From the NCBI GenBank assembly GCA_965208575.1, contig CBDBOV010000006.1, positions 896,001-960,000 of the forward strand: a stretch of 64,000 nt of DNA, read 5' to 3'. Of the stretch, positions 8,624 to 57,358 are shown piece by piece. Origin of the DNA: Spirochaetia bacterium (GTDB taxonomy: Bacteria; Spirochaetota; Spirochaetia; SZUA-6; Bin103). The translations under genes and the position numbers were made by a program. The notes beneath the pieces are model-generated. The model was not told where the DNA came from, did no database searches, and saw nothing but the letters and a program-made list of their open reading frames with translations. Positions within the stretch are counted from its first letter, which is position 1. Each line of letters begins with the position of its first letter.

Positions 8624-8812
8624 GGAGGTGCAAGTGATACTCAAAGAACCGCACCATGCGCGCGGCCCGAGTTCATGACGCTCATGCCGCGCGCATGACC
8701 ACCAGGGATTGCCGCCGCTGTCTGGCCGCCTGCGTTGCGGGCGCGAGAGTGGCAGGGAAAGGCAACTCGCTCGGAGAGCACTCTCAGAATCTCAGATATG
8801 GGAGAGATCAGT
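8624..8812 (+). promoter_or_regulatory. MILKEP leader, divergent copy (uORF 8634-8678, MILKEPHHARGPSS) with hairpins
   Basis: GGAGGT then GTG ATA CTC AAA GAA CCG; stems catgcgcgcggc/gccgcgcgcatg and gagagtg/cactctc. Confidence 0.7.
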
Positions 8813-10603
8813 ATGATTTTTCCAAGAATCGCACACCCCTTCGTGGTTGTGCTCGTGTTCGCCCTGACCGCCACCGGCGTCTGGGCCAGTCCGGCCGGAG
8901 AAGAGGAGCCGGCAGCCGCCGCCGACAAGGAAATGGTGCTCGACCCCACCACGGGCAAGATGGTGACCGCGCCGGAGTACGGCGGGACAATGACCGTTTG
9001 GGGGGGCGCCTGGGTTACTGAGTCTTCTAGTGACCCCTATTTCAGCTACAGCGACGCCACCGTAGGCGTCGTAGAGAAGCTAGGTATTTCGGACTGGGGC
9101 ATAGATAGAGACGAATTTGACTTTAGAACAGTGTTCTTCCCTGACTCTTTCCTGACAGGGAGGCTGGCTGAAAGCTGGGATATTTCCTCGGACGGCCTCA
9201 CCTATACCTTCAACATCCGCGAGGGCGTCAACTGGCATAATAAGGCACCGATGAACGGTCGTGCGCTGACAGCCGAGGATGTCGTATATAACTTTCACCG
9301 TCAATTGGGTCTGGGCAACTTCACCGACGCCGGGCCTAGCCCCAACTGGCCCGCCGGCAACCTCAAGCGCATCCCATTCGAATCGATAACAGCCACCGAC
9401 GATTCGACGGTTGTCATGAAGCTAAAGGAGCCATCCCTCCCCGCGCTGAATATTATTCTCCTCGACCTCCCTACTTACATAATGCCCCCCGAGGTAATCG
9501 AGCAACATGGCGACGTTCAGGATTGGAGAAACCTGGTCGGCACCGGACCCTTTATGCTGACTGACGTAGTCGATGGGAGCTCTGCCACCCGCACCAGGAA
9601 TCCTGACTACTGGGGCTATGACCCAAAGTACCCGCAGAACCGCTTGCCCTACGTTGACGAGTTAAGGATAGTGGTAATGCTAGAGGAATCATCAATTTTC
9701 GCAGCACTACGCTCAGGCAAGCTTGATTTCAGGGCTCGGGCTCTGTCCCTGGACTCGGTAGAGAGCCTGCTGCGGACCAACCCCGAAATCGCGGTGACCC
9801 CGATTTGGTTTCGGTCGAGCGATTCTTTTGCTCCTGACGTGCGCGTGCCGCCCTTTAACGACATCAACGTGCGCCGCGCAATGCAGCTGGCGCTGGACAA
9901 CGAGACTGCGGCGGCTTCGTACTGGAAGGGTCAGGCAAATGCGACACCTCAGGGGCTGATAGGGGTGAAAGGGTATTACATCCCCTTCGAGGAGTGGGAC
10001 GAAGAGGTCAAGCAATACTACCGATATGACCCGGAAGCTGCCGAGAAGCTCCTTGATGAGGCCGGATACCCTCGAGGCGCCGACGGCACTAGATTCCAGA
10101 CCGTCTTGAATACAGCGGCTTTTGCAAGCTTAGACTTTGCCGAAATCGCTGCCGCCTACTGGGCTGAGATTGGTGTCGATGTTAAGATTGATGTACTGAC
10201 CGCCCCCGAATTTGCCCAGAGGATGCGCCCCCCCAGTGATTTGGAAGGCATGTCCGGTGCCACTGCGGGCCAACTTGGAGACCCTGTCACGGTGATAGAC
10301 GATTTTCACTCGGATTCAGAGGTGAACCGCGGCGGAGTCCAGGATCCTGAGTACGACGCCATGGTTGAAGCCGCCCTAGGCGCTACCAGCATTGAGGAGC
10401 AGAAGAGGCTGATTGCAGAAGCAGATATGTACGCGATCGAGAAGCACTGGCATATATTTGGTCCCAAAAGTCCAGTGTACTATTTGGCCCAGCCGTGGGT
10501 CAAAGGTTATAACGGTGAAGCTGGCTTGAATAAATGGGAAGACTGGCTCATTTTTACCTACCTCTGGATTGATAGTGAGATGAAGGAAGCAATGGGTTAT
10601 TAG
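8813..10603 (+). CDS. ABC transporter substrate-binding protein, family 5 (cassette 2)
   Basis: Same motifs as SBP1; ATG 8813 downstream of GGAGAG. Confidence 0.95.
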   Translation: MIFPRIAHPFVVVLVFALTATGVWASPAGEEEPAAAADKEMVLDPTTGKMVTAPEYGGTMTVWGGAWVTESSSDPYFSYSDATVGVVEKLGISDWGIDRDEFDFRTVFFPDSFLTGRLAESWDISSDGLTYTFNIREGVNWHNKAPMNGRALTAEDVVYNFHRQLGLGNFTDAGPSPNWPAGNLKRIPFESITATDDSTVVMKLKEPSLPALNIILLDLPTYIMPPEVIEQHGDVQDWRNLVGTGPFMLTDVVDGSSATRTRNPDYWGYDPKYPQNRLPYVDELRIVVMLEESSIFAALRSGKLDFRARALSLDSVESLLRTNPEIAVTPIWFRSSDSFAPDVRVPPFNDINVRRAMQLALDNETAAASYWKGQANATPQGLIGVKGYYIPFEEWDEEVKQYYRYDPEAAEKLLDEAGYPRGADGTRFQTVLNTAAFASLDFAEIAAAYWAEIGVDVKIDVLTAPEFAQRMRPPSDLEGMSGATAGQLGDPVTVIDDFHSDSEVNRGGVQDPEYDAMVEAALGATSIEEQKRLIAEADMYAIEKHWHIFGPKSPVYYLAQPWVKGYNGEAGLNKWEDWLIFTYLWIDSEMKEAMGY

Positions 10604-10616
10604 GGGCTGAGCTTAG

Positions 10617-10666
10617 GAAAAAAGGGAGCTGGGGGGTGTCGCCTGGGCGCGCTTCCCAGCTCCCTT
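10617..10666. terminator. Conserved post-SBP hairpin
   Basis: aagggagctggg...cccagctccctt; related copies near 25276, 30615, 42621, 49347 and 59778. Confidence 0.6.
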
Positions 10667-10694
10667 ACTCATTGAAGGGTGAGAGAACGGCAAC

Positions 10695-10733
10695 GAGATC
10701 GCCAGGCCCCCATGAATCTTGGCTCGCAATGAC
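10695..10733. repeat. REP-like palindromic unit (GAGATTGC...GCTCGCAATGAC type)
   Basis: Also at 42677-42715, 49403-49439 and as a cluster at 59879-60128. Confidence 0.6.
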
Positions 10734-10748
10734 AGGGAGTACTGTGAC

Positions 10749-11759
10749 ATGAGAGCCTATCTCATCAGGCGGTTGCTGCTCATAATCCCTACCTTGTCTG
10801 TATTGACCATCATGGTCTTTCTAGCGGTCCGCTTCATTCCTGGCGACGTGATCGACGTAATGGTGGCTAGGATCACGGAACAAGGTGCCGAGGGCGCGGA
10901 GATTGACCGCGCAGCTCTTGAGCGTAGGCTCGGATTAGACGTGCCTGTGCACGTGCAGTATGGACGCTGGATAGGAGTGTTGCCAACCCCTGACTTTATT
11001 ACCGGTGAGTCCCACTTCAAAGGTCTCCTCCAGGGCGCCCTTGGCCAGTCACTGTGGGGCGCCCATTTCTCGGTGGAGGAGAAGATAATAGGCAGATTGC
11101 CAGTAACCATTCAGCTTGGTGTCATGGCAATCGTAATCGGGCTCGTGATAGCGCTGCCGGTCGGCATCTACTCGGCGATTCGCCAGGATACCGCCGCCGA
11201 CTACGCGGGGCGCTCGGTCGCCATCATCGGCCTGGCAACGCCCAACTTCTGGCTGGGAACCATGGTCATGCTCTACCCGGCAATCTGGTGGGGCTGGTCG
11301 CCACCGATGGAAACGATTCCTTTCACGGAAGACCCGCTGGGCAATATTGGGATGTTCCTCATTCCGAGCCTGATTCTGGGGACGGCCTCGGCTGCAGCCA
11401 CCATGCGGATGACCCGCACCATGATGCTGGAGGTGCTGCGCCAGGATTTTATCAGGACGGCCTGGGCCAAGGGTCTCCGGGAGCGGGTCGTGGTGCTGCG
11501 GCATGCCGTCAAGAATGCCCTGATCCCGGTGGTGACCCTGATCGGCCTGCAGTTGCCGATCCTGATAGGTGGCTCGGTCATCATGGAGAACATCTTCAGC
11601 CTGCCGGGATTGGGTCGTCTCCTGCTGACTGCACTCGATACCAGAGATTACCCAATGGTCTCCGGAATAAACCTGATTTTCGCCACCGCGGTGGTGCTGT
11701 TCAATCTCCTGATCGACCTGCTCTATTCCTATCTGGACCCGAGGGTGCGCTATGAGTGA
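10749..11759 (+). CDS. ABC permease, DppB-like (cassette 2)
   Basis: MRAYLIRR...; conserved permease loop. Confidence 0.95.
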   Translation: MRAYLIRRLLLIIPTLSVLTIMVFLAVRFIPGDVIDVMVARITEQGAEGAEIDRAALERRLGLDVPVHVQYGRWIGVLPTPDFITGESHFKGLLQGALGQSLWGAHFSVEEKIIGRLPVTIQLGVMAIVIGLVIALPVGIYSAIRQDTAADYAGRSVAIIGLATPNFWLGTMVMLYPAIWWGWSPPMETIPFTEDPLGNIGMFLIPSLILGTASAAATMRMTRTMMLEVLRQDFIRTAWAKGLRERVVVLRHAVKNALIPVVTLIGLQLPILIGGSVIMENIFSLPGLGRLLLTALDTRDYPMVSGINLIFATAVVLFNLLIDLLYSYLDPRVRYE

Positions 11760-11843
11760 GGCTTTTTGCTAGGCCCGCGAGTGTGCTGTCTATGAGTGAG
11801 GCTTCTTGGCTGGACCCGGGAGTGCGCTACCTATGAATGAGGC
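11733..11843 (+). repeat. Triplicated ~40-bp dppB/dppC junction
   Basis: ctatga(g/a)tgaggc occurs three times, each preceded by a ct(g/a)g(a/g)cccg..gtg.gc-like stretch. Confidence 0.65.
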
Positions 11844-12726
11844 GCGCGGCCAGTTTGCCGATTTCTTCGGCAGGTTGTGGCGGCAGAAGCCCCTGGGCAT
11901 CGCCAGCGGGATCGTCATCCTGATCCTGATTTTGTTGGCGATCTTCGCCGATGCTCTGGCCCCCTATCCGTTCGATCAACTGAACCTGGCAGAAAGGCTG
12001 CAGGGCCCGTCGGCCCGCCATCTGCTGGGGACCGACCAGTTGGGCCGCGACCTGTTGAGCCGGCTGCTGTTCGGGGCGCGCATCTCGCTGGTCGTTGGTC
12101 TGGCGGCGACCACGCTGAACGTGGTGGTCGCTACCCTGATCGGCGGCACCTCCGGGTTCATTGGGGGCAAGCTGGACCTGGCGGTGCAACGTTTCGTCGA
12201 TGCCTGGATGGCGTTCCCGGGACTGCTGCTGTTGCTCACGATCATGTCGGTCGCGGGGCAGGGTCTGCTACAGATCATCGTGGTGCTGGGGGTCGCCGGC
12301 GGCGTGGGCGGCTCGCGCGTGGTCAGAGGCGCGGTGGTGGCCACCAAGGGCAACGACTTTTTTCTGGCCGCCCGGGCGGTGGGCTCGCCGACGCGACAGG
12401 TCCTGGTGCGCCATGTTCTGCCCAATATCGTGGCGCCGCTCATCATCGTCTTCAGCATCAACGTCGGCGGTGTGATCCTGGCCGAGGCGTCCTTGAGCTT
12501 TCTCGGCTTCGGGCTGCCGATCAAGGTGCCGAGCTGGGGCGGGATGCTCAGCCGGGAGGGGCGGCGGTTCATGGAGCAGGCGCCGTGGCTGGCGCTGTGG
12601 CCCGGGCTGTGCCTGACGATCGTGGTGTACAGCTTCAACATGTTGGGTGATGCGATGCGGGACCTGCTCGATCCGCGGCTGCGCGGCGGGGGGCGTCTGG
12701 CTGCCGGCGGCGCCACGTCGGTGTAA
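11833..12726 (+). CDS. ABC permease, DppC-like (cassette 2)
   Basis: GTDQLGRD and GDAMRDLLDPR motifs. Confidence 0.95.
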   Translation: MNEARGQFADFFGRLWRQKPLGIASGIVILILILLAIFADALAPYPFDQLNLAERLQGPSARHLLGTDQLGRDLLSRLLFGARISLVVGLAATTLNVVVATLIGGTSGFIGGKLDLAVQRFVDAWMAFPGLLLLLTIMSVAGQGLLQIIVVLGVAGGVGGSRVVRGAVVATKGNDFFLAARAVGSPTRQVLVRHVLPNIVAPLIIVFSINVGGVILAEASLSFLGFGLPIKVPSWGGMLSREGRRFMEQAPWLALWPGLCLTIVVYSFNMLGDAMRDLLDPRLRGGGRLAAGGATSV

Positions 12727-12734
12727 AAAGGAGT

Positions 12735-25168: not shown

Positions 25169-25175
25169 GTGCTCA

Positions 25176-27086: not shown

Positions 27087-27280
27087 CGTTGCTTCCTTCA
27101 GAGTAGTCTTGAGAGCATTGCGGAGCGGATCGCCGCTCCCTGGCTCCTCTCGGGCGCGCAACGCGCGCCGCCAGGCAGAGTCAATCTGTGCAGCGCGCGG
27201 CGTGTGACTCAGCCGGGTTCCACCCGGGCTCACGCCGCGCGCGCGTAAGGTTCTTTGAGTATCATTTGGACCTCCTCTCC
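27087..27280 (-). promoter_or_regulatory. MILKEP leader (uORF 27230-27265, MILKEPYARAA)
   Basis: AGGAGGT, uORF and conserved hairpins. Confidence 0.8.
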
Positions 27281-32482: not shown

Positions 32483-32675
32483 CGTTTCTCCCTTCAGAGT
32501 AATCTTGAGAGTATTGCGGAGCGAATCGCCGCTCCCTGGCTACTCTCGGGCCCGCAACGCGCGCAGCCAGGCAGAGTCAATTTGTGCAGGGCGCGGAGTG
32601 TGACTCAGCCGGGTTCAACCGGGCTCACGCCGCGCCCACGCAAGGTTCTTTGAGTATCATTTGGACCTCCTCTCT
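32483..32675 (-). promoter_or_regulatory. MILKEP leader (uORF 32625-32660, MILKEPCVGAA)
   Basis: AGGAGGT and uORF; compensatory stem gggcgcgg/ccgcgccc. Confidence 0.8.
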
Positions 32676-39976: not shown

Positions 39977-40000
39977 CAGCCGGTAACGGTGTGCGGCGGG

Positions 40001-40590: not shown

Positions 40591-40780
40591 AGGAGGTGAA
40601 GATGATACTGAAAGAACCGCACGCGCGCGCGGCGTGAGCCCGGGTGATCCCGCCGACTCACACGCCGCGCGCTGTCAGTGTATTTGGCTCTGACTGGCCG
40701 TCCGTGTAGCGGGCGCGAGAGTAGCCAGGGAGCGCCAATCCGCTACGCAATACTCTCGAAGTAACATTCAAGGAGAAACG
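40591..40780 (+). promoter_or_regulatory. MILKEP leader (uORF 40602-40637, MILKEPHARAA)
   Basis: AGGAGGT, uORF and hairpins. Confidence 0.8.
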
Positions 40781-43705: not shown

Positions 43706-43723
43706 AGGGGGAAAATCACGAGT

Positions 43724-44653: not shown

Positions 44654-44701
44654 GGAGAGCGCGCCTGCGGCGGCCTGGGAGCCACGCGCCTGCTGTGGGC
44701 C

Positions 44702-44974: not shown

Positions 44975-45028
44975 GCCGGCTGCACGCAGGTCAGGTCAAC
45001 AGCAGCGGCCCGTCGTCTGTCGACCAGT

Positions 45029-46378: not shown

Positions 46379-46542
46379 CTGAGCCAATGTACCGAAGCAG
46401 ATCCAAGACGTACAGTGTTTGCGGCGCAACTGCGGCGCAACTGCGGCGCATTGCTGTCTAAGACGGCCGCTCAGCTCGATCGACAACGCGCCGTTGACAG
46501 ACGCTGCTTGTCATGCGAACGGTGTAGCCGTACGCTTGTGGC

Positions 46543-46832
46543 GTGATCCTTCGCTCCGTCCGGCACCGAGGGTTGCGTCGCCTGATCGAGGACGACAACC
46601 CCAGGTTTCTGGGTCAGAACCTTGTCGACCGGGTGCGAAAGATCCTGGCCGTGCTCATCCTGGCTGAAGACATCAACCAGTTCGTCGCCACGGCACCGCG
46701 TGGCTGGCATGTTCACCGACTCTCCGGTGACCGAAAGGACGACTGGAGCGTTCGGTCTCCGGCAATTGGCGGATCACGTTTACGGCAGAGGACGGCACAA
46801 TCGACGGCTTGAACCTGGAGGATTACCACTGA
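46543..46832 (+). pseudogene. higB: HigB toxin with a 1-nt frameshift near 46751
   Basis: RHRGLRRL...HRLSGDRKDDWSV, then in another frame VSGNWRITF...LEDYH*. Confidence 0.85.
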
Positions 46833-47137
46833 TGGCTAGCGACGGTATCAACGTGAACATGACCCCGCCGCATCCGGGGGATTTCATCCGTACGGAGGTC
46901 ATCGAAGAGCTTGGACTGAACGTTTCGAAGGCAGCCCTGATTCTCGGTGTCCGTCGGGCGACACTGTCGGCCCTGCTCAATGGCAACGCCTCGCTCTCGC
47001 CGGAAATGGCGCTGCGCATCGAGAAGGCGTTCGATGTCAGCATGGACGTGCTCCTGAAGATGCAGGCATGGCACGACGCCGCCCGGATGCGCGCACGTGC
47101 AAGCGAGATCGCGGTCAGGCGCTACGAGTCAGCCTGA
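46832..47137 (+). CDS. higA: HigA antitoxin
   Basis: PPHPGDFIR...LGV.RATLS.LLNG...SPEMALRIEKAF. Confidence 0.92.
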   Translation: MASDGINVNMTPPHPGDFIRTEVIEELGLNVSKAALILGVRRATLSALLNGNASLSPEMALRIEKAFDVSMDVLLKMQAWHDAARMRARASEIAVRRYESA

Positions 47138-47213
47138 TAAGGAGCGGATAATTCGCACGCCCAGTGCCGGCAACGCGGGGTGCAGGCGTATCTGAACACC
47201 AAAGAACGCGTGG

Positions 47214-47242
47214 TTGACAGACTGCGACGGGCGGTGCATCGT
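47214..47242 (+). promoter_or_regulatory. sigma70-like promoter, cassette 6
   Basis: TTGACA-N17-CATCGT; homologous to 3415-3443. Confidence 0.55.
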
Positions 47243-47527
47243 GGCTTACTCGGGGTCCTGGACTCGTGCAAACGATGCGTGACCATAACACTCAGCGCTA
47301 CCACCAGTTGACGCAACCAGTACCCCCGTCCGGTCCGCGTACGAGGGGGTGCACGTGAAGAGGTAATCCATCCCGCGGCCCGCGATCGACGCCGTGGTCA
47401 ACTCGAAGCTGTCGCCCTCGTCGGAATCGCCTGCGCCGCACACGCGCGGACCGGCACACACGCCACGGGAACAGGCGAGGGAGCGGCACTTGAAGTGCGT
47501 GTTCTCGAAAACAGAGGAGATCAATTC

Positions 47528-49315: not shown

Positions 49316-49460
49316 CGGGGTTCACTCCCTGTGGCGTAGCTTAGGGAAAGAGGGAGCTGGGGGTTCAAACCTCCCGGCTCCCATACCCCTAAAGAGGGCA
49401 ATGATTGCCACGCCCCGATAAATCGGGGCTCGCAATGACAAGGGGGGGGGGGGGTGTGAC

Positions 49461-50459
49461 ATGAGAGCCTACATCATCAGGCGGTTATTGCTGATAATCC
49501 CCACCGTGTTTCTATTGAGTATCATAGTCTTTCTCTCGGTCCGCTTCATCCCCGGCGATGTAATAGACGTAATAGTGGGTAGGATAGAAACTTCTTATGC
49601 CACCGTTGACCATGAAGCTATTGAGCGTAGGCTGGGATTAGACGTGCCTGTCCACGTGCAGTATGGACGCTGGACAGGAGTGTTGCCGACCCCTGACTGG
49701 GTTACCGGTGAGTCCCACTTCAACGGTATCCTCCAGGGCACCCTTGGCGAATCACTGCTTGGTGATTTTGCGGTAGAGGAGAGGATATTAGACAGATTGC
49801 CGGTAACCGTTGAGCTTGGCGTCCTGGCAATTGTAATCGGGCTTGTGATTGCCCTGCCCGTCGGCATCTACTCGGCGATTCGCCAGGATACGGCCGCCGA
49901 CTACCTTGGGCGCTCGTTCGCCATCCTCGGCCTGGCAACGCCTAACTTTTGGCTGGGAATGATGGTCATGATATACCCGGCAATCTGGTGGGGCTGGTCG
50001 CCACCGATGACGTGGGTTCCTTTCACCGAAGACCCGCTCGGGAATCTCGCGGTGTTCATCATTCCCAGCCTGATTCTGGGGACGGCCATGTCTGCGGCCA
50101 CCATGCGGATGACGCGCACCGTGATGCTGGAGGTGCTCAGGCAGGACTATGTCAGGACGGCCTGGTCAAAGGGTCTGAAGGAGAGGGTCGTTGTCATAAG
50201 ACACACCATCAAGAACGCCCTCATCCCGGTAGTTACCCTGGTAGGCCTGCAGTTGCCTCTGCTGGTAGGTGGCTCCGTTATCATGGAGAACATATTCAAC
50301 CTGCCGGGGTTGGGTCGCCTCATACTGGATTCACTCAAGAACAGAGACTACCCGGTGGTCTCCGGAATAAACCTGTTTTTCGGCGCCGCGGTTATGGGGG
50401 CCAATCTAATGATAGACCTGCTTTATCCTTATTTAGACCCCAGGGTCCGTTATAGGTAA
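49461..50459 (+). CDS. ABC permease, DppB-like (cassette 6)
   Basis: Family motifs; G13 tract at the RBS position. Confidence 0.95.
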   Translation: MRAYIIRRLLLIIPTVFLLSIIVFLSVRFIPGDVIDVIVGRIETSYATVDHEAIERRLGLDVPVHVQYGRWTGVLPTPDWVTGESHFNGILQGTLGESLLGDFAVEERILDRLPVTVELGVLAIVIGLVIALPVGIYSAIRQDTAADYLGRSFAILGLATPNFWLGMMVMIYPAIWWGWSPPMTWVPFTEDPLGNLAVFIIPSLILGTAMSAATMRMTRTVMLEVLRQDYVRTAWSKGLKERVVVIRHTIKNALIPVVTLVGLQLPLLVGGSVIMENIFNLPGLGRLILDSLKNRDYPVVSGINLFFGAAVMGANLMIDLLYPYLDPRVRYR

Positions 50460-50477
50460 AGGGGAAAAATCACGAGT

Positions 50478-50760
50478 ATGAGTAATGTCACAGGGATACC
50501 ATCACCAGTAAGTGAGCCATAGAGACGTACCGGGCTGGCTGATTTCTTTTCCAGGCTGTGGCGGGAGAAGCCACTGGGTGCTGCCAGCGGGATTATCATA
50601 TTACTCGTGATTCTGTGGCGGAGGTGATTGGCAGCTCAAAATGGAGAACATCATTGTCATTTACAGTCTGAACATGTTCGGCGACGCCCTGCGGGACCTC
50701 CTCGACCCGATGCTGAGGGGCGGTGGTAGTCTCGGCGCCGGAGCCGCCGGGTCGGTCTAA
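50478..50760 (+). pseudogene. dppC pseudogene (cassette 6)
   Basis: Matches both ends of dppC5, with an early TAG and two large internal deletions. Confidence 0.9.
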
Positions 50761-50774
50761 GGAGAGCGCGCCTC

Positions 50775-51100
50775 GACGGATCGATGATGACGCGCCATGA
50801 CGACAGTCAGCGCAGTGACCGGTTGGCGGTGACGTTCGGTGACCGCCGAGTCGTTGACATGCGCGCCGCGCCTATGCTAGCGTATCTTGCTTGGGGCGAC
50901 GGATGCCGATGAAGCGCCATGATGACAGGCAGCGCAGTGACCGGTTAGTTGTGACGCAGCCAGTGCACCCCCCCTCATTACGAACCGAGAAACAACTAAC
51001 CGCTCCGGCTGATCGCCCCGTACGCGCCTCCGCGCACCCCGTCCCCTCCACTACCGCCGCATCTGTACGTGGCGCCGGCTCGGCCATCGCTGAACCACAC
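50775..51100 (+). promoter_or_regulatory. Promoter-repeat region and conserved upstream block, cassette 7
   Basis: TTGACA(50854)-N18-TAGCGT; aactaaccgctccggctgatcg block shared with ~8440 and ~55215. Confidence 0.65.
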
Positions 51101-51140
51101 CCGAAACAGACAACTTCCGTCTTGTCCAACTCACGAAAAG

Positions 51141-51325
51141 AGGAGGTCAAGATGATACTCAAAGAGCCGTGGGCGCGCGCGGCGTGAGCCCGGGTGAACC
51201 CGGCTGAGTCACACGCCGCGCGCTTTCCGAGAATTTGACTCAGACTGGCCGCCTGCGTTGCTCGTGGCCAGGGAGCGGAAATCCGCTCCGCAATACTCTC
51301 GAAATAACATTCTAAGGAAGAAACG
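51141..51325 (+). promoter_or_regulatory. MILKEP leader (uORF 51152-51187, MILKEPWARAA)
   Basis: AGGAGGT, uORF and hairpins. Confidence 0.8.
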
Positions 51326-53122
51326 ATGAAGATATGTTTCACAAGGACCTTCGCGATTGCGATGGTCCTGATTCTGAGCGCGACCGGCCTCTGGGCCACT
51401 GGCGCAGAAGAGGCGCCGGCAGCCGCTGCCGACAAGAATTATGTGACCGACCCCGCCACCGGCAAGGTGGTGACCGCGCCCGAGTATGGCGCGACATTAA
51501 CCTATCCCGACCTGTCAAAGGCCGAGACTACTGACCCCTTTATTACTGGCCACCCTGCGACCCGTTTCATTGGTAGCGTTAATGAGAAGCTCGCCTGGGG
51601 GGACTGGTCAATAGATAGGGACCTGTGGGACTTTACAACCAATTTCAGCTATCCCACTGTTGCCACTACAGGGGGTCTGGCGGAAAGCTGGGAGCAGCCC
51701 GACGACACGACGATCGTCGTCCACGTCCGCCCGGGCGTTCACTGGCATGATAAGCCACCGATGAACGGTCGGGAGCTAACTGCCGATGATGTCGTGTATA
51801 CCTTTCAGCGTAATACCGTTCAGGGCGACTTCACCGAACGTCCCCTCAAGACTTACGAGTTGATCAACCTGCCATGGGAATCGATAGAGGCCACCGACAA
51901 GTATACGGTTGTCTTCAAGCTGAAGGAGCCATATCTCGGTGCGCTGAAGGCCATCCTCAGCGACATACAGGGTTGGATATTACCCCCCGAGGTAATTGAG
52001 CAATACGGCGACTATGCGGATTGGAGGAACGTGGTCGGCACCGGGTCCATTATGCTGACTGACTATGTCGAAGGCGTCTCTATTACCTGGGACAAGAATC
52101 CTGACTACTGGGGCTACGACCCAAAATACCCGGAGAACCGCTTGCCCTATATTGATCAGTTAAGGCTCCTGTACATGCCAGAAGAATCAACACGTCTATC
52201 GGCACTACGCACGGGTCAGATTGATATGATACATGCCGGCACGGCGGCGGTAAATACCCTCGACGTGGTAAAGAGCCTGCAGCGGACCAACCCCGAAGTT
52301 CAGGTGACCGGTTATTTCATGCGAGCGGTTGGGAGTTTCGGTCTGAACGTACACAAGCCGCCCTTTGACGACGTCAGGGTTCGCCACGCACTGCAGATGG
52401 CGCTGGACCTCGAGACGATCAACGATACCTACTTTGGCGGTTACGCAAAGTGGGAACCCATGGGGATGATAGGGTATGCCCTCCCGGAGTATTACACCCC
52501 ATTTGAAGATTTTCCCGAAGAGGTCAAGCAATACTACAGGTATGACCCGGAAGGTGCCGAGAAGCTCCTTGATGCGGCTGGATATCCGCGCGGCGCGGAC
52601 GGCGTTCGATTCAAGGTCAACTATGACCACGTCATCGCCGATGATTTAGGCTATGCAGAAATAGCTGTCGGCTACTGGGATGCGATTGGCGTTGATGTAG
52701 AGATCGATATGTATGACGGGCCTACTTGGTACAATCGTAGAAACGACGGTATTTATCACATGACCCTTGGCGACATGGGCTTTAATCTCAGCCCTTCAAT
52801 GTTGATAGGCTGGTATCGTGGGGGTGGACATGTCCGCCATTACATGGGCGGCGATGTCGACACCCCTGAGATGACCGCCGCCTATGAAGCCTTTTTCGCC
52901 GCTACCACCGTTGAGGAGCAGCAGAGGGCATTTAAGGAGTTTGACATGGCCATAATAAAGCACCACAATCAGATATATAGTCCTATGCGTCCAAGGTATC
53001 AGGTGGCGCAGCCGTGGGTCAAAGGTTATAACGGAGAATGGGAGCTGGAAATTGCGGGAGAACGTAGCGTCCTCATCCACCTTTGGATTGACCAAGATCT
53101 AAAGGAAGAAATGGGATTCTGA
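51326..53122 (+). CDS. ABC transporter substrate-binding protein, family 5 (cassette 7)
   Basis: Signal peptide and family motifs. Confidence 0.95.
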   Translation: MKICFTRTFAIAMVLILSATGLWATGAEEAPAAAADKNYVTDPATGKVVTAPEYGATLTYPDLSKAETTDPFITGHPATRFIGSVNEKLAWGDWSIDRDLWDFTTNFSYPTVATTGGLAESWEQPDDTTIVVHVRPGVHWHDKPPMNGRELTADDVVYTFQRNTVQGDFTERPLKTYELINLPWESIEATDKYTVVFKLKEPYLGALKAILSDIQGWILPPEVIEQYGDYADWRNVVGTGSIMLTDYVEGVSITWDKNPDYWGYDPKYPENRLPYIDQLRLLYMPEESTRLSALRTGQIDMIHAGTAAVNTLDVVKSLQRTNPEVQVTGYFMRAVGSFGLNVHKPPFDDVRVRHALQMALDLETINDTYFGGYAKWEPMGMIGYALPEYYTPFEDFPEEVKQYYRYDPEGAEKLLDAAGYPRGADGVRFKVNYDHVIADDLGYAEIAVGYWDAIGVDVEIDMYDGPTWYNRRNDGIYHMTLGDMGFNLSPSMLIGWYRGGGHVRHYMGGDVDTPEMTAAYEAFFAATTVEEQQRAFKEFDMAIIKHHNQIYSPMRPRYQVAQPWVKGYNGEWELEIAGERSVLIHLWIDQDLKEEMGF

Positions 53123-53154
53123 GCAAGCCCATTGCCCTTGGGCGAGTGAAACTA

Positions 53155-53203
53155 AGGGCGCCGGGAGAACGGTTCCGACCGCGCTTCCCGGCGCCCTTTT
53201 TTG
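53155..53203 (+). terminator. Intrinsic terminator between SBP7 and dppB7
   Basis: agggcgccggga...tcccggcgccct followed by a T-tract. Confidence 0.75.
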
Positions 53204-53213
53204 TCACGAAGAA

Positions 53214-54170
53214 ATGAGAGCCTACATCATCCGGCGGCTGCTGCTGGTCATCCCCACGTTGTTCATTCTGAGCGTTTTGGTGTTCCTGTCGGTGCGCTTC
53301 ATCCCAGGCGACGTCATCGGCGCCATGGCAAGCCGTATGTTGTCCGTGGGCGGCGCTGTTGACCGTGAAGCTCTTGAGCGCATGCTGGGATTGGACGTGC
53401 CTGTCTACGTACAGTATGGACGATGGATCGGAGATGTTTTGCTGCGCGGCACGCTCGGCGAGTCGCTACTTGGCGGTTGGCGCATCGAGGAGCGCATGCT
53501 GGGACGACTGCCGGTCACCGCCGAGCTCGGGCTGCTGGCCATCCTCATCGGACTGGTCATCGCGCTGCCGGTAGGCATCTACTCGGCGGTGCGCCAGTAC
53601 ACCGCCGCCGACTACGTGGGACGGTCGGTCGCCATCATGGGACTGGCGACACCCAACTTCTGGCTGGGAACGATGGTGATGATCTACCCGGCCATCTGGT
53701 GGGCGTGGGCGCCACCGATGGAGCTGATCCCGTTCGCCCAGGACCCGCTCGGCAACCTCGGCATGTTCCTCATCCCCAGCCTGATCCTGGGCACCTACCT
53801 GGCAGCCAGCACCATGCGCATGACGCGCACCATGATGCTGGAGGTGCTGCGCCAGGACTACATTCGCACCGCCTGGGCCAAGGGTCTGCTGGAGCGGTCG
53901 GTGATCCTGCGCCACGCCGTCAGGAACGCCATCATCCCGGTGGTGACGCTGGTGGGTATGCAGCTGCCGATCCTGGTGGGCGGCTCGGTCATCATCGAGA
54001 ACATCTTCAACCTGCCGGGGCTGGGGCGGCTGATGCTGGACGCGCTTAATGACCGCGACTACCCGGTGGTGTCCGCGGTGAATCTGTTCTTCGCCACGGT
54101 GGTGGTGTTCGTCAACCTGCTGACCGATCTGCTGTACGCGTCGCTGGACCCGCGGATTCGCTACGAATGA
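53214..54170 (+). CDS. ABC permease, DppB-like (cassette 7)
   Basis: Close paralog of dppB3. Confidence 0.95.
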   Translation: MRAYIIRRLLLVIPTLFILSVLVFLSVRFIPGDVIGAMASRMLSVGGAVDREALERMLGLDVPVYVQYGRWIGDVLLRGTLGESLLGGWRIEERMLGRLPVTAELGLLAILIGLVIALPVGIYSAVRQYTAADYVGRSVAIMGLATPNFWLGTMVMIYPAIWWAWAPPMELIPFAQDPLGNLGMFLIPSLILGTYLAASTMRMTRTMMLEVLRQDYIRTAWAKGLLERSVILRHAVRNAIIPVVTLVGMQLPILVGGSVIIENIFNLPGLGRLMLDALNDRDYPVVSAVNLFFATVVVFVNLLTDLLYASLDPRIRYE

Positions 54171-54195
54171 GGCAATGAGGCAGTGAGGGAAGCCC

Positions 54196-54569
54196 GTGGG
54201 TGACGTATCACAACTGACGCCCGCCGGCGCCGAGCCGGCCGGCGTCTGCTGCGCCACGTGCTGCCCAACATCGCGGCGCCCATCATCATCATCTTCAGCA
54301 TCAACGTCGGCGGGGTGATCATGGCGGAGGCGGCGCTGAGCTTTCTGGGCTTCGGACTGCCGCCGGACATTCCGAGCTGGGGCGGCATGCTCAGCCGCGA
54401 GGGGCGGAAGTACATGGAGATGGCGCCGCATCTGGCGTTGTGGCCGGGGCTGTGCCTGACCGTCGTCGTCTACAGCCTCAACATGTTCGGCGACGCGGTG
54501 CGCGACTTGCTCGACCCGCGGCTGCGCGGCCGCCTCGGCGCGGCCATAGGCCAGCTGACCCCGGGCTGA
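54196..54569 (+). pseudogene. dppC pseudogene with a large internal deletion (cassette 7)
   Basis: dppC3-like start (VGDVSQLTPAGAEPA) fused to LLRHVLPNIAAP... Confidence 0.9.
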
Positions 54570-54632
54570 CACGTCGGTGACACGCCCTGGCCATGGAGGC
54601 GTTGGACGCTCAGTTTTCGCAGCAGCAATTCA

Positions 54633-54787
54633 GCGTTCCGGGCGCGCCTCCGGAGTTGCCGACCGGCTCCCAGCCCACGACGTCCTGTCGCGGGCCGGGA
54701 GCTACATGCCACCCGTGGGGCCATGGAGGGTGCCTCGGGTGGAGGTCACGCTGCATAAGACGTGATACCGGGGGGGTGCCGGTCGGC
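54633..54787. repeat. ~155-bp repeat, inverted relative to 62198-62352
   Basis: gcgttccgggcgcgcctccggagt...gtcgcgggccgggagctacatgcca matches the reverse complement of the partner. Confidence 0.8.
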
Positions 54788-54790
54788 GCT

Positions 54791-55170
54791 GTTGACAGGG
54801 TGGCCGCGCTCGCAAGAGAGTGCACCGTTAGGGGTTCGGCGAATGCAGATGATGCGCCCCGACGACCGCCAGCGCGGTGGCCGGTGATGTTCGGTGACGT
54901 CGGTGACGTCGGTGACGTCGGTGACGTCCGAGTCGTTGACAGGATGGCCGCGTCCATAGCAAGCTTGCCTCGCCTCGGCTTCGACGGATCGATGATGACG
55001 CGCCATGACGACAGTCAGCGCAGTGACCGGTTGGCGGTGACGTTCGGTGACCGCCGAGTCGTTGACAGGCGCGCCGCGCCTATGCTATCGTGCCTCACTT
55101 GGGGTTTCGACGGATGGTCATGAAGGGTCACGATGACAGGCAGCGCAGTGACCGGTTGGTTGTGGCGCAG
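54791..55170 (+). promoter_or_regulatory. Three tandem promoter-containing repeat units with (TCGGTGACG)x4, cassette 8
   Basis: GTTGACAGG at 54791, 54935 and 55061; last unit is TTGACA-N18-TATCGT; 9-mer array at 54891-54926. Confidence 0.7.
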
Positions 55171-55510
55171 CCAGTGCATCCTGCTACCCCCCCCCCCACT
55201 TTTTCGAACCGAGAAACAACTAACCGCTCCGGCTGATCGCCGCGCACGCGGCCCCGCGCACGCCGTCGCCTTCTCCACCGCCGTAGCTGTCGGTGGCGCC
55301 GGCTCGGTCGATCGCCAGACCGCCCGCACCCATCCCGTCGACTCAGGCGGTGCCGGATCCCCGCCTGCGACTAACTGCGCGCAAAACCCTCCGCCTGCGT
55401 TGGCGGCCATTCAGACTCACTGCTGCTCAGACCACCGCCACGCGTGGCGTTGTAACGCAGATCCCGACGTAGATCTAGAGAAGAGTTGGAGTAGGGATGA
55501 CCATCGCTGA

Positions 55511-56362
55511 TCACCCCCTCCACAGATCCCGGCGAGCGGGACTACCGCACCGGGCTCCTGCCTCAGGGATGACGCCAAGGCGGTGCAAGGGATAGGGATG
55601 GCACCCTCGGGGCGGTGGCAACCAGTGGTCAAGCAGGCGGCTCATCCGCTCCCAGGTAAGCCGGGTTTTCTGACTGCGCCGCCGCATCGACCGATACCAG
55701 AGCCGACCAACCCGGACGCGGAACAGGCGGAGTGCGCGGGAGTTCGTGGGCACCCCGTATTAACGCAGGTGCCCACTCACAACCGAGCGCAGCCAGCTTC
55801 CCACCTCCGGGACCGGATCGTGCAGGCGCCGCCGAAGCTCGGTCTTCACCAGCCAGCCGTGGTCGATGGCATCGAAGAACCCACGGATGTCCATGTCGAG
55901 CACCCAGGTCACCTTCCGTGTCAGCAGGCCCACATAGAGCGCGTCCAACGCATTGTGCTGGCTGCGCCCCGGTCGGAACCCGTAACTGAACCCGAGGAAG
56001 TCGGTCTCGTAGATGGTGTTCAGCACCTCGACTGTCGCACGCTGGACGATCTTGTCTTCCAGCGCCGTCACGCCGAGCGGTCGTTGCCGCCCGTCGCTCT
56101 TGGGGACGAACACCCTCCGCACCGGCTTCGCCCGGTACGCTCCTCGCTTGAGCCGTCCGGAGAGGTCCAGGAGGTTGCCCTCCAGGTCCCTTCCGTGCTG
56201 CCGCCACGTCACCCGGTCCACGCCCGGCGCGGCTTCCCGCCCCCGGCGGAAGTACGCCTCCCGGAGGATCGCGGGGTTGTCGACGTGGTGCATGAGCGCG
56301 GTGAACCGCAGCGTCCTATCCCGTCGCGCTGCTTGACGTATCCGCTCCAGCGCACTGTGCAC
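55511..56362 (-). pseudogene. ltrA: Intron-encoded RT/maturase, internally deleted (no YADD) and with a stop at 55760
   Basis: RPLGV.ALEDKIVQRA, FSYGFRPGRSQH and DIRGFFD, then a jump to X-domain sequence. Confidence 0.9.
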
Positions 56363-56365
56363 GCC

Positions 56366-56531
56366 CTAGCAGCCGGTGGCGAAACTCCAGCTGCATTCGA
56401 GCGGCGAATGCATCCCGGCTGGCTGCGTTGCTCCTCGCTCACATATGGCCGATATGCTCGTTCGTCGCGCCTTGCCAGCCGGGCGCCTCGCCGCTCTCGG
56501 TGCGACGCCGGGTTCCGCCACGGGCTGCTAG
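56366..56531. mobile_element. MITE nested in the intron, with 16-bp TIRs and flanking CTAG
   Basis: CTAG-cagccggtggcgaaac ... gttccgccacgggctg-CTAG (14/16 inverted match). Confidence 0.8.
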
Positions 56532-57166
56532 TGCCGGCGCGGTGTCCGGGGCGCGCTTTGCTGGTGCGGATTCCCTTTGGCCAGGCCCCTTCCCTCCACC
56601 CGCTCCGCGGTTGGGGCGCTACCGGCCGGCGTGGCCGTAGGTGCTCCCTTGGCTGTGTCCGGCGTTTCCGCCTGCGTGCCCGTGTAGGGTTCACCATAGC
56701 CGCGCCGCCTGCGGCAGCTCCCGTCCTTGTTCGCGGGTTTCCCAGGTACCCCGAAGGGCGGCCGGCAGGCCGGGGGCCTGTCCGACTTCCCAGCGCCGTT
56801 CATCGTCGGCGTCCGTCCTTCGACTTCCCGACACGGCCTGCGGCGCCATCCGCCACCGGCGAAGCTGGGATCTCCCGGCTCCCGCGCAAGGTGTTTCCGT
56901 ACGTGCCCGGGGTCTGTGACCGCGCAGGGTCCCGTGGCGCCTCGCGATATCGGCGTCCCGGGTGTGGCCTTCCGCATCCTCCTACGGCGTCGGCACCCCA
57001 AAGTAATCTCTTTCGCGGCTCGATACCCGGCCCGCACGTACCCCTGTCAACGCGTCACCCCCGCCCTCGCGGGCGACGGCGCATGACTCGGGGCCGCCGT
57101 GGGTCGCTAACCCTTCGACGTATGACTCTTCCATTCACAACACCTTGCCGGTTTGTGCCGGCGCAC

Positions 57167-57358
57167 AGGAGGTTCGAATGATACTCAAAGAGCCGCACGT
57201 GCGCGCGGCGTGAGCCGGGGTGAACCCGGATGAGTCACACGCCGCGCGCTCTTAGTGAATTTGACTCAGACTGGCCGTCTGCGTTGCGGGCATGAGAGTA
57301 GCCAGGGAGCGGCAAGTCGCTCCGCAATACTCTCGAGAATCAAGATCCGGAGTTACGC
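57167..57358 (+). promoter_or_regulatory. MILKEP leader (uORF 57178-57213, MILKEPHVRAA)
   Basis: AGGAGGT, uORF and hairpins. Confidence 0.8.

What the first reader, a model, noticed from the sequence alone, without database searches (positions are those of the whole stretch)
8624..57358. Conserved MILKEP-x leader peptide in front of six SBP genes: candidate new ribosome-coupled sensor
Seen: six copies (8634+, 27265-, 32660-, 40602+, 51152+, 57178+) of a GGAGGT Shine-Dalgarno, then a start codon and a short uORF about 175-180 nt upstream of the SBP start. Codons 1-6 always encode MILKEP and vary only synonymously (CTC/CTG, GAA/GAG, CCT/CCG, ATG/GTG). Codon 7 varies: His, Tyr, Cys, His, Trp, His. 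Five copies are 11 aa and stop at a TGA inside the 5' arm of a GC-rich hairpin. Established: leader and arrest peptides (TrpL, TnaC, SpeFL, MgtL) work by stalling a ribosome over such a hairpin arm. Inference: this is a translated attenuator in which a Pro-X stall, possibly tuned by residue 7, controls each importer paralog. I do not recognise it as a known family.
Basis: partly seen in the sequence, partly recalled or inferred. Interest (0 to 1): 0.9.

Follow-up and report, generated by a model that had tools for sequence, protein, structure and literature searches.

The report
Translated mini-ORF leader before importer genes
About sixty peptide-importer operons in this uncultured bacterium each start with the same short translated reading frame (M-I-L-K-E-P) that runs into a conserved folded RNA, a previously undescribed leader that probably lets a ribosome set how much importer is made.

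Summary
All six window copies exist (0 expected by chance). The genome holds about 60 copies, each heading an SBP_bac_5 plus permease operon. The leader occurs in 7 of 10 other genomes of the same genus and in none of 90 genomes outside that genus.

In 171 copies collected without using the mini-ORF, 158 have an NTG start and 148 of those have a Shine-Dalgarno core. Codons 3-6 (L-K-E-P) show 80 synonymous against 24 nonsynonymous inferred changes, where 22% synonymous is expected. Lys and Glu wobble changes are almost only A/G, while the Pro wobble takes all four bases. The mini-ORF is therefore very probably translated and its peptide is under selection.

Codon 7 drifts freely and is a stop in 15 copies. 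Tuning by residue 7 is not supported.

Downstream lies a conserved RNA with hairpins P1, P2 and P3 and an extra helix. It has modest covariation support and no Rfam match.

Classical attenuator features were not found. Few copies have a U-tract after P1. No masking of the importer ribosome-binding site is predicted. There is no run of regulatory codons.

Best reading: a new ribosome-coupled leader with a pause at Glu-Pro. The output step is unknown.

The parts
8624..8678 (+). Leader copy 1: SD (8624-8629) and mini-ORF 8634-8678 (GTG start, 14 aa, subfamily B)
8652..8796 (+). Leader copy 1: structured RNA P1-P2-P3 (divergent subfamily B)
   Evidence: covariance model R1, 102 bits
8813..10603 (+). 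SBP_bac_5 gene 1, followed by permease genes 10719-11759 and 11806-12726
27230..27275 (-). Leader copy 2: SD and mini-ORF 27265..27230 (11 aa, Tyr at codon 7)
27100..27247 (-). Leader copy 2: structured RNA P1-P3
   Evidence: R1, 138 bits
25320..27086 (-). SBP_bac_5 gene 2, followed by permease genes 24215-25213 and 23160-24110
32625..32670 (-). Leader copy 3: SD and mini-ORF 32660..32625 (11 aa, Cys at codon 7)
32496..32642 (-). Leader copy 3: structured RNA P1-P3
   Evidence: R1, 141.5 bits
30680..32482 (-). SBP_bac_5 gene 3, followed by permease genes 29556-30614 and 28606-29538
40592..40637 (+). Leader copy 4: SD and mini-ORF 40602-40637 (11 aa, His at codon 7)
40620..40768 (+). Leader copy 4: structured RNA P1-P3
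   Evidence: R1, 150 bits
40781..42589 (+). SBP_bac_5 gene 4, followed by permease genes 42731-43705 and 43724-44653
51142..51187 (+). Leader copy 5: SD and mini-ORF 51152-51187 (11 aa, Trp at codon 7)
51170..51311 (+). Leader copy 5: structured RNA P1-P3 (P2 3' side partly deleted)
   Evidence: R1, 136 bits; alignment
51326..53122 (+). SBP_bac_5 gene 5, followed by permease gene 53214-54170
57168..57213 (+). Leader copy 6 (exemplar): SD 57168-57173 and mini-ORF 57178-57213 (11 aa). The TGA at 57211-57213 lies inside the P1 5' arm
57201..57249 (+). Exemplar P1: 5' arm 57201-57212, apical hairpin 57215-57229, loop heptamer 57231-57237, 3' arm 57238-57249
57262..57268 (+). Exemplar linker heptamer complementary to the P1 loop heptamer (pseudoknot or alternative hairpin)
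57276..57334 (+). Exemplar P2 (57276-57292) and P3 (outer arms 57294-57300 and 57328-57334; inner hairpin 57306-57323)
57359..59161 (+). SBP_bac_5 gene 6 (own SD about 57348-57352), followed by permease genes 60144-61151 and 61170-62102
55485..57167 (-). Not part of the leader but abutting it: a degenerate group II intron on the opposite strand, whose 5' end touches the SD of copy 6
   Evidence: RF02005 at 176 bits; RVT_1 fragment; RF00029 at 36 bits, below its gathering score of 40

Best explanation
This is a genus-specific cis-acting 5' leader that heads each operon of a greatly expanded family-5 solute-binding-protein (peptide-type ABC importer) family. It has two coupled parts.

Part 1 is a ribosome-binding site and a translated mini-ORF. 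Only its first six residues, M-(I/V/T)-L-K-E-P, are under amino-acid-level selection. Codon 7 is free and may be a stop. The remaining codons are simply the 5' arm of hairpin P1.

Part 2 is a conserved RNA. It has P1 (12 G-C-rich pairs with an apical hairpin), a helix between the P1 loop and the downstream linker (a pseudoknot, or an alternative hairpin), then P2 and P3. An A/U-rich spacer and the importer's own ribosome-binding site follow.

Proposed mechanism. A ribosome with Pro6 in the P site covers most of the P1 5' arm. This holds whether the next codon is a sense codon or a stop. The nascent Lys-Glu-Pro slows peptide transfer or release at that point. The time the ribosome sits there then decides whether P1 or the alternative pairing forms. 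That choice sets read-through or stability of the importer mRNA. Because the same leader heads about 60 paralogues, the signal would be a general one, such as translation capacity, ion or energy state, or a compound acting at the peptidyl-transferase centre. It would not be each importer's own substrate.

What is shown: copy number and gene context, the coding signature, the conserved RNA helices, and the geometry of the ORF relative to P1. What is inferred: the pause, the switch and the output step.
For: Copies and context:
- 61 copies in the genome by an nhmmer profile that excludes the ORF.
- 56 of 61 are followed by an ORF longer than 550 aa. The seven examined in the window are all SBP_bac_5, followed by permease genes.

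Selection rather than recent duplication:
- The 56 SBP paralogues have a median amino-acid identity of 47%.
- The most common base accounts for 90% or more of copies at most leader positions. The figure is roughly 30-70% upstream and 30-80% in the P3-to-SD spacer, and 61-70% at CDS third positions.

Coding signature in 171 unique copies anchored only on the RNA part:
- 158 of 171 have NTG at codon 1 (ATG 126, GTG 18, TTG 7, CTG 7).
- 148 of those 158 have an SD core.
- Inferred changes per nucleotide in codons 3-6 are [3,6,19], [3,2,15], [3,3,26] and [2,2,27].
- This gives 87 third-position changes against 24 others (p 3e-22), and 80 synonymous against 24 nonsynonymous changes where 22% synonymous is expected (p 3e-32).
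- AAR and GAR wobble changes are 36 transitions to 3 transversions. CCN wobble changes are 8 to 18 (Fisher p 2.4e-7).

Geometry:
- Mini-ORF lengths are 11 aa in 116, 6 aa in 15 and 14 aa in 11 of the 158 copies. 132 stop at a TGA, which in the window copies lies in the P1 5' arm.

RNA structure:
- 92.4% of cells are paired, against 28-57% in slid controls. 17 pairs show compensatory change, reached by 0 of 500 shuffles.
- The extra helix is 87.4% paired, against 16-36% in slid controls.
- This helix becomes a hairpin in folds where the P1 5' arm is masked.

Transcript context:
- Promoter-like TTGACN-N16-18-NANNNT sites (spacer 17 in 11 of the 12) lie 32-218 nt upstream of the mini-ORF in 12 of 57 copies. 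The reverse-complement control gives 3 of 57.
- The same promoter type sits before the single leaderless orthologue in G009 and G010.

Literature (passages read):
- C-terminal Glu-Pro and Asp-Pro before a stop are reported to induce strong ssrA tagging in E. coli (PMC7246954, citing Hayes 2002).
- The MgtL leader peptide pauses or drops off at its early E-P-D-P motif, with Pro3 in the P site. This remodels the mgtA leader RNA (PMC11282234).
Against: - 13 of 171 copies have no NTG start, yet keep the 14-nt box of codons 2-6 almost unchanged. One group of three G000 paralogues has three different non-start codons. Part of the constraint may therefore act on the RNA, or these copies work without the ORF.
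- Codon 2 is ATA in 134 of 171 copies and never ATC, although ATC is 77% of Ile codons genome-wide. This is not explained by coding.
- No output device was found. Only 33 of 137 copies have 4 or more T in the 8 nt after P1. The simple terminator scan flags none of the three leaders in 40000-59500. The predicted unpaired probability of the SBP SD and ATG is 0.44 with or without a ribosome on the mini-ORF (137 copies).
- Lys-Glu-Pro has one acidic residue and is not a documented arrest motif. No experiment shows a pause.
- The parsimony counts rest on a FastTree of flanking sequence from paralogues that may recombine, so event numbers are approximate.
- All RNA helices are highly conserved, so covariation support is modest. 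The structure was derived from the same sequences.
Confidence: 0.5

Rival explanations
1. The folded RNA (P1 with pseudoknot, P2, P3) is the real sensor, either a riboswitch or the binding site of a regulatory protein or small RNA. The mini-ORF is only an accessory, for example the expression platform or a helper that opens P1.
For: - Most P1-to-P3 positions, including linker and loop positions, show the most common base in 90% or more of copies. This is typical of aptamers and protein sites.
- The helices, including a possible pseudoknot, have covariation support.
- Start-less copies keep the whole RNA and the box sequence.
- At least three copies keep only the P3 part (partial nhmmer hits starting at model position 59-67). 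The leaderless SBP at 47495 keeps a short stretch resembling the P3 inner arm in its upstream region (seen by eye, not tested).
Against: - It does not explain amino-acid-level selection on L-K-E-P, nor the NTG and SD conservation.
- No Rfam family matches, even at E up to 1.
- No expression platform such as a terminator or SD sequestration was found downstream of the RNA.
- One ligand for about 60 importers of presumably different substrates would have to be a global signal.
Confidence: 0.2
2. The leader is a constitutive 5' stabiliser and ribosome-loading module, not a sensor. A ribosome held near the 5' end by a strong SD and a slow Glu-Pro step, together with stable 5' hairpins, protects the abundant SBP mRNA from 5'-end-dependent decay.
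For: - SBPs are usually made in excess over permeases. A hairpin with a T-run lies between the SBP and permease genes at 53181-53194.
- The SBP ribosome-binding region is predicted to be open in all states, so no switch is needed.
- The leader is identical in design before about 60 paralogues.
- From my own recall, not from any call: stalled ribosomes in ermC, the STAB-SD element of cryIIIA and the ompA 5' UTR stabilise mRNAs.
Against: - The distance from the putative promoter to the mini-ORF varies from 32 to 218 nt, so the ribosome is not at a fixed place near the 5' end.
- Selection on three specific residues is more than simple ribosome loading needs.
- Nothing here measures mRNA half-life.
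Confidence: 0.2
3. The leader is a classical amino-acid attenuator. Codon 7 (His, Tyr, Trp, Cys or Arg) is the sensing codon, P1 is the terminator, and each paralogue is tuned to a different amino acid.
For: - Codon 7 varies among paralogues.
- A ribosome waiting at codon 7 would cover the P1 5' arm (geometry).
- P1 is a long G-C stem, usually followed by TT.
Against: - There is a single codon, never a run.
- Codon 7 is His in 118 of 171 copies and a stop in 15, and it changes at a near-neutral rate.
- Only 33 of 137 copies have 4 or more T in the 8 nt after P1.
- No antiterminator alternative that competes with the P1 3' arm was found.
Confidence: 0.07
4. The leader has no function of its own. 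It would be a relic copied along with the gene family, kept similar by gene conversion, or shaped by the group II intron that targets it.
For: - The leader is confined to one genus and to one expanded gene family.
- Third positions of the first 45 aligned SBP codons are somewhat more conserved (0.76-0.82) than later ones (0.61-0.70).
- An intron family uses the leader as its insertion site.
Against: - Conservation is patchy in the way selection predicts. The P3-to-SD spacer inside the conserved block is poorly conserved.
- The wobble-specific substitution pattern cannot come from conversion or from an intron target.
- The paralogous proteins have diverged to 47% median identity.
Confidence: 0.03

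Closest known systems
MgtL leader peptide in the mgtA leader RNA (Salmonella, E. coli)
   Same: A very short ORF sits inside a structured 5' leader of a transporter operon. An early Glu-Pro-containing motif makes the ribosome pause or drop off with Pro in the P site. That event changes the leader RNA fold and downstream transcription (PMC11282234, passages read).
   Different: MgtL needs a repeated acidic E-P-D-P motif at residues 2-5 and acts through a Rho-dependent terminator. Here there is one acidic residue (K-E-P at residues 4-6), a different RNA, no known Rho site, no sequence similarity, and about 60 copies per genome.
TnaC and PepNL (arrest at a stop codon after the nascent peptide)
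   Same: In both, a leader ORF works through slow peptide release at a stop codon. The Pro24-tRNA position of TnaC is recalled. The abstract of PMC11890864 describes PepNL arrest at UGA. Here 15 of 171 copies end K-E-P-stop.
   Different: TnaC (24 aa) and PepNL (14 aa) need longer peptides and specific inducers or inhibitors. Here only 6 residues are conserved, and most copies carry a sense codon after Pro.
Glu-Pro-stop and Asp-Pro-stop termination stalling (Hayes, Bose and Sauer 2002, as cited in PMC7246954)
   Same: The last two residues before a stop in the 6-aa variants are Glu-Pro. This pair is reported to give strong ssrA tagging in E. coli.
   Different: That is a general property of termination in E. 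coli, not a regulatory element. The same paper found no expression loss for EP-stop in its own library.
Drug-dependent short leader peptides of cat, cmlA and erm genes
   Same: Five to ten N-terminal residues suffice to hold a ribosome so that it melts the 5' arm of a hairpin just downstream.
   Different: In those systems the hairpin sequesters the ribosome-binding site of the resistance gene. Here P1 lies about 110 nt upstream of the SBP ribosome-binding site, and masking it changes nothing in the predictions.
Classical attenuators (trpL, hisL, pheL)
   Same: A translated leader ORF overlaps the first arm of a stable hairpin.
   Different: There is no run of regulatory codons, no conserved U-tract terminator and no evident antiterminator.

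Membership tests
Any Rfam family (release 15) | Covariance-model match at or above the family's gathering score | tested here: not met
   In the whole window at gathering threshold, the only hits are two group II intron matches. At E up to 1 over 54000-57420, no hit overlaps the leader.
Classical amino-acid attenuator (trpL/hisL type) | Tandem or multiple codons for the regulatory amino acid in the leader ORF | tested here: not met
   There is one variable codon (codon 7). It is a stop in 15 of 171 copies.
Classical amino-acid attenuator (trpL/hisL type) | Intrinsic terminator (G-C stem plus U-tract) with a competing antiterminator | tested here: not met
   33 of 137 copies have 4 or more T in the 8 nt after P1. 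The simple terminator scan flags none of the three leaders in 40000-59500. Constrained folds show no antiterminator involving the P1 3' arm.
Translation attenuation of the erm/cat type | The leader hairpin sequesters the downstream gene's ribosome-binding site, which a stalled ribosome frees | tested here: not met
   The mean unpaired probability of the SBP SD and ATG is 0.44 free and 0.44 with the mini-ORF region masked (137 copies). This is a prediction only.
MgtL-type intrinsic ribosome destabilisation leader | Two or more acidic residues, adjacent or one apart, often with Pro, early in the nascent chain | tested here: not met
   The consensus M-I-L-K-E-P-H has a single acidic residue. The motif definition comes from PMC11282234.
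MgtL-type intrinsic ribosome destabilisation leader | Pause or drop-off that changes the leader RNA fold and Rho-dependent termination | not testable with these tools
   This needs toeprinting, peptidyl-tRNA assays and a Rho inhibition experiment.
Translated leader ORF (generic uORF or leader peptide) | Start codon with SD, and a substitution pattern that follows the genetic code | tested here: met
   158 of 171 copies have an NTG start, and 148 of those 158 have an SD core. There are 80 synonymous against 24 nonsynonymous changes in codons 3-6, and two-fold and four-fold wobble sites behave differently (p 2.4e-7).
Ribosome arrest peptide | Demonstrated peptide-dependent ribosome stalling | not testable with these tools
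   Only the conservation of K-E-P, with a free or stop codon after it, points that way.
Riboswitch | Conserved structured aptamer with covariation, plus a ligand-dependent expression platform | tested here: inconclusive
   The helices are supported, but variation is low.

The most novel reading that the evidence does not exclude
A six-residue nascent peptide (M-I-L-K-E-P) would be among the shortest natural ribosome-pausing sensors. Working with a pseudoknotted G-C hairpin that the paused ribosome holds open, it would put about 60 importer operons per genome under one cis-encoded global signal, forming a regulon wired through copies of a leader rather than through a transcription factor. The signal could be translation capacity, Mg2+ or energy state, or a small molecule from the sponge habitat acting at the peptidyl-transferase centre.
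Probability: 0.3. Interest if true: 0.8.

Novelty: new variant of a known kind. Interest (0 to 1): 0.6.

Why it matters
Leader peptides and arrest peptides are known from a handful of model-organism operons. Here an undescribed one appears to have been multiplied about 60 times per genome along with an importer family, in uncultured bacteria whose records and matching RNA runs are labelled as sponge metagenome.

If the pause is real, it gives a minimal peptide (three conserved residues next to the peptidyl-transferase centre) for studying sequence-dependent slowing of the ribosome. It also gives an example of genome-wide co-regulation by a copied cis element.

The paralogues offer a natural mutational series for experiments: codon 7 variants, stop-at-7 variants and start-less copies. 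Even if the leader is only an mRNA stabiliser, it is a compact module that could be tested for boosting expression in high-GC hosts.

Tried and rejected
1. The box as a promoter (-10-like hexamer inside codons 1-3). No conserved -35 lies at the right distance. Promoter-like sites lie upstream instead, and the wobble pattern argues for translation.

2. An antisense ORF as the cause of the three-base periodicity. In the antisense frame that shares the wobble positions, the CCT variants of codon 6 (13 copies) followed by CA would read as a stop. This is my own reading of the codons.

3. P1 as a canonical terminator, and P3 or P1 as a sequestrator of the SBP ribosome-binding site. Not supported.

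4. Pairing of the box with the linker or with the P3 5' arm. The partners vary while the box does not, and I saw no compensation by eye. A naive all-against-all search for compensating column pairs gave only noise.

5. More distant homologues.
- Model R1 found nothing at E up to 0.001 in 0 of 13 sister-genus genomes and 0 of 77 others. With five handles at E up to 1 it gave only scores of 16 bits or less.
- The metagenome-contig scan with a P3 pattern gave 21 stretches. None matched R1, so all are chance hits.
- Three of the 28 genome contigs stretches (labelled Terriglobia twice and Paceibacterota once) are also chance hits.

6. RNA evidence. Four runs labelled sponge metagenome (metatranscriptomic libraries) hold 0.27-0.39 of the sampled words. 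They were laid on 56700-59300.
- They are kept as contigs only. Summed depth mixes paralogues and may include DNA.
- Contigs do cover the SD and mini-ORF. One paralogous contig runs about 81 nt further upstream.
- No start, end, strand or level of an RNA can be read from this, so I draw nothing from it.

No earlier notes were seen.

8. Supplementary files of papers were not opened. They are unlikely to bear on this element.

9. Papers. MILKEP gave 0 papers. For PMC7246954 and PMC11282234 I read only the passages returned by 'find'. For PMC11890864 I read the abstract and outline. Statements about cat, cmlA, erm, ompA, cryIIIA and TnaC residue numbers are recalled. No search of the library was made for this RNA structure under another name beyond Rfam.

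Full report
THE OBSERVATION

A pattern made of the SD hexamer, 3-12 nt, and an ATG or GTG followed by codons for I-L-K-E-P matches six times (8624+, 27275-, 32670-, 40592+, 51142+, 57168+). It matches zero times in 100 shuffles.

The translations are V/MILKEP followed by H, Y, C, H, W, H. Five ORFs are 11 aa and end at a TGA. The first is 14 aa. Each lies 174-181 nt before the ATG of an approximately 600-aa ORF. All six of those ORFs, and a seventh leaderless one at 47495, are PF00496 SBP_bac_5. They are followed by BPD_transp_1 permease genes.

The region from the SD to about 25 nt before the SBP ribosome-binding site aligns across all six copies. It folds into three hairpins, and the mini-ORF stop lies in the 5' arm of the first.

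SCALE AND DISTRIBUTION

The window is G000:C6:896001-960000 of a 6.5-Mb, 67% G+C genome.

An nhmmer profile built only from the part downstream of codon 7 finds 61 copies. Fifty-six of them are followed by an ORF longer than 550 aa with a very similar signal peptide.

A covariance model of the same ORF-free part (R1) hits 7 of 10 other genomes of the same genus. A relaxed search of five non-hit genomes gave nothing above 16 bits.

Public records with the pattern are MAGs labelled Spirochaetia, Tectimicrobiota, Acidobacteriota or simply 'bacterium'. Three further labelled hits, and all 21 metagenome-contig hits, are chance matches.

Two complete genomes of the genus without the leader each hold one 45%-identical orthologue. 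It has a plain TTGACR-N17-TACRGT promoter, a 5' UTR of roughly 35-45 nt and no mini-ORF. The leader therefore arose with, and spread with, the expansion of this SBP family.

SELECTION, NOT RECENT COPYING

The 56 SBP paralogues are 47% identical at the median. The most common base accounts for 90% or more of copies at most leader positions. The figure is roughly 30-70% upstream of the SD and 30-80% in the spacer between P3 and the SBP SD. Third codon positions of the SBP genes sit at 61-70%, or 76-82% in the first 45 aligned codons. A poorly conserved spacer inside the conserved block argues against gene conversion as the cause.

IS THE MINI-ORF TRANSLATED?

I collected 171 unique copies from eight genomes, using only matches to the ORF-free model or profile.

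- Codon 1 is ATG 126, GTG 18, TTG 7 and CTG 7. Thirteen copies have a non-start codon.
- 148 of the 158 NTG copies have an SD core 4-16 nt upstream.
- Codon counts are: codon 2 ATA 134, GTA 16, ACA 8, ATT 4; codon 3 CTC 136, CTG 20, CGC 9; codon 4 AAA 150, AAG 14, other 7; codon 5 GAA 128, GAG 35, other 8; codon 6 CCG 138, CCT 13, CCA 9, CCC 8, other 3.

I then counted changes by parsimony on a tree of the flanking sequence. The numbers of changes per nucleotide are [29,7,5] for codon 1 and [15,11,8] for codon 2. For codons 3-6 they are [3,6,19], [3,2,15], [3,3,26] and [2,2,27]. For codon 7 they are [31,15,26]. At 14 of the 16 positions counted upstream of the start codon they are 39-66.

- In codons 3-6, 87 of 111 changes hit the third position (p 3e-22).
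- 80 of 104 codon changes are synonymous, where 22% is expected (p 3e-32).
- The two-fold Lys and Glu codons change almost only A to G or back (36 transitions, 3 transversions). The four-fold Pro codon takes all bases (8 transitions, 18 transversions; Fisher p 2.4e-7).

This last contrast follows the genetic code and is hard to explain by an RNA constraint. An antisense reading frame cannot explain it either, because the CCT variants would create a stop there (my own reading of the codons).

The event counts are approximate, because paralogues may recombine and the tree is a quick one.

WHAT IS AND IS NOT CONSTRAINED

Only L-K-E-P, and loosely a hydrophobic or small residue at position 2, is held at the amino-acid level.

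Codon 7 is His in 118 of 171 copies, a TAG stop in 15, Tyr in 13, Arg in 8 and Trp in 4. It changes at a near-neutral rate. The remaining codons are the 5' arm of P1. Mini-ORF lengths among the 158 NTG copies are 11 aa (116), 6 aa (15) and 14 aa (11). The stops are TGA 132, TAG 19 and TAA 5.

The state common to all variants is a ribosome with Pro6 in the P site. From the exemplar coordinates, P1's 5' arm begins 6 nt after codon 6. Such a ribosome therefore covers most of that arm.

Two features are not explained by coding.
- ATA at codon 2 is never replaced by ATC, although ATC is 77% of Ile codons in the genome. AAA and GAA are also preferred against genomic usage.
- The 13 start-less copies keep the box of codons 2-6 nearly intact. 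These include a group of three paralogues with three different non-start codons, and copies in two other species.

THE RNA PART

On 105 aligned copies, the structure consists of P1 (12 pairs), an apical hairpin, P2 (7 pairs) and P3 (7 outer and 7 inner pairs). It has 92.4% of cells paired, against 28-57% when partners are slid. Seventeen pairs show compensatory change, a number reached by 0 of 500 shuffles.

A heptamer in the P1 loop is complementary to a conserved heptamer in the linker after P1. This helix is 87.4% paired, against 16-36% in slid controls, with 14 compensated cells. Relative to P1 it is a pseudoknot. In folds where the P1 5' arm is masked, as under a ribosome, it forms as a plain hairpin. 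I cannot tell which applies.

Variation is low throughout, and the structure was derived from these same sequences, so the support is modest. No Rfam family matches.

LOOKING FOR THE OUTPUT STEP

- P1 is not followed by a consistent U-tract. Only 33 of the 137 copies with a recognisable 3' arm have 4 or more T in 8 nt. The organism does have canonical terminator-like hairpins elsewhere.
- The SBP ribosome-binding region lies in an A/U-rich spacer. Its predicted unpaired probability is 0.44 whether or not the mini-ORF region is masked (137 copies).
- Promoter-like sites of the lineage's type lie 32-218 nt upstream of the mini-ORF in 12 of 57 copies, against 3 of 57 in the reverse-complement control. 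This places the mini-ORF inside the transcript, but at no fixed distance from the 5' end.
- RNA-library contigs cover the mini-ORF but cannot show starts, ends or levels.

INTERPRETATION

The data show a translated mini-ORF whose peptide identity matters, physically overlapping a conserved RNA fold, at the head of every operon of an expanded importer family.

A 6-11-aa peptide with a free C-terminal part is unlikely to act away from the ribosome. The most economical reading is a nascent-chain effect at the peptidyl-transferase centre: a slow step with Glu5-Pro6.

Two documented facts make this plausible.
- Glu-Pro before a stop is among the C-terminal pairs reported to provoke ssrA tagging in E. 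coli (PMC7246954, passages).
- The MgtL leader pauses or drops off at an early E-P-D-P motif with Pro in the P site, and thereby refolds the mgtA leader (PMC11282234, passages).

The present peptide has only one acidic residue and no similarity to MgtL, so it works like that system at most. It is not a member. Whether the outcome is read-through, mRNA stability or something else is open.

My rough odds are:
- about 0.85 that the ORF is translated;
- about 0.6 that the peptide acts as a nascent chain;
- about 0.5 for the full ribosome-coupled leader model;
- 0.2 for an RNA-centred sensor;
- 0.2 for a constitutive stabiliser;
- under 0.1 for a codon-7 attenuator.

NOVELTY

No Rfam match was found. 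No paper in the searched library contains the string MILKEP. No match was found outside one genus.

The kind of element (a leader ORF coupled to an RNA fold) is known. This family, its six-residue core, its lack of the classical output devices and its roughly 60-fold multiplication are not. I rate it a new variant of a known kind.

Noticed in passing
window 55485-57167 (-) and 40360-40591 (-); G000 genome-wide: A degenerate group II intron sits on the opposite strand with its 5' end directly against the leader's SD. It has an RF02005 match of 176 bits, a truncated RVT_1 ORF and a domain V/VI match below gathering score. All 12 blastn hits to this intron's 5' end in the genome lie next to a leader: 11 within 80 nt and one at 133 nt. 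Most are truncated to 47-270 nt. The reverse complement of the SD and start region therefore appears to be the intron's homing site.
   Followed up: partly
G000 genome-wide; L188 and L189 (G009, G010): The SBP_bac_5 family is massively expanded. At least 56 full-length paralogues lie behind leaders in G000, with 47% median identity. Two complete genomes of the same genus without the leader have a single 45%-identical orthologue.
   Followed up: partly
window 47130-47620 (upstream of SBP gene 47495-49315): A seventh SBP_bac_5 gene in the window has no mini-ORF and no P1. Its upstream region still holds a short stretch resembling the P3 inner arm. Three further genome copies match only the P3 part of the profile.
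   Followed up: no
first 45 aligned codons from 15 codons upstream of the conserved signal-peptide motif, in the leader-associated SBP genes (e.g. window 57359-57540): The signal peptide and the following acidic, Ala-rich stretch are conserved among paralogues. Their third codon positions are somewhat more conserved (0.76-0.82) than later ones (0.61-0.70). The functional RNA may therefore extend into the coding region, or this end may be exchanged between copies.
   Followed up: partly
L009 (G005), L023 (G006), L027 (G001): Some leaders are broken by rearrangement after P1 or P2. In L009 the SD, mini-ORF and the first part of P1 are joined to unrelated sequence and then to a permease-like ORF.
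   Followed up: no
L019 (G005), L028 (G006): Some copies carry a tandem duplication of the P2 hairpin region (about 19 extra nt in the alignment).
   Followed up: no
window 53181-53204 (+): A G-C hairpin followed by a T-run lies between an SBP gene and its permease gene. It looks like an internal terminator that would give more SBP than permease.
   Followed up: no
upstream of the SD in many copies (e.g. window 27276-27300 (-), 32671-32700 (-)): Short hairpins of different sequence lie at a similar distance upstream of the SD in different leader subfamilies, and some subfamilies share about 55 nt of further upstream sequence. It is not clear whether these are part of the transcript or are terminators of the preceding gene.
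   Followed up: no
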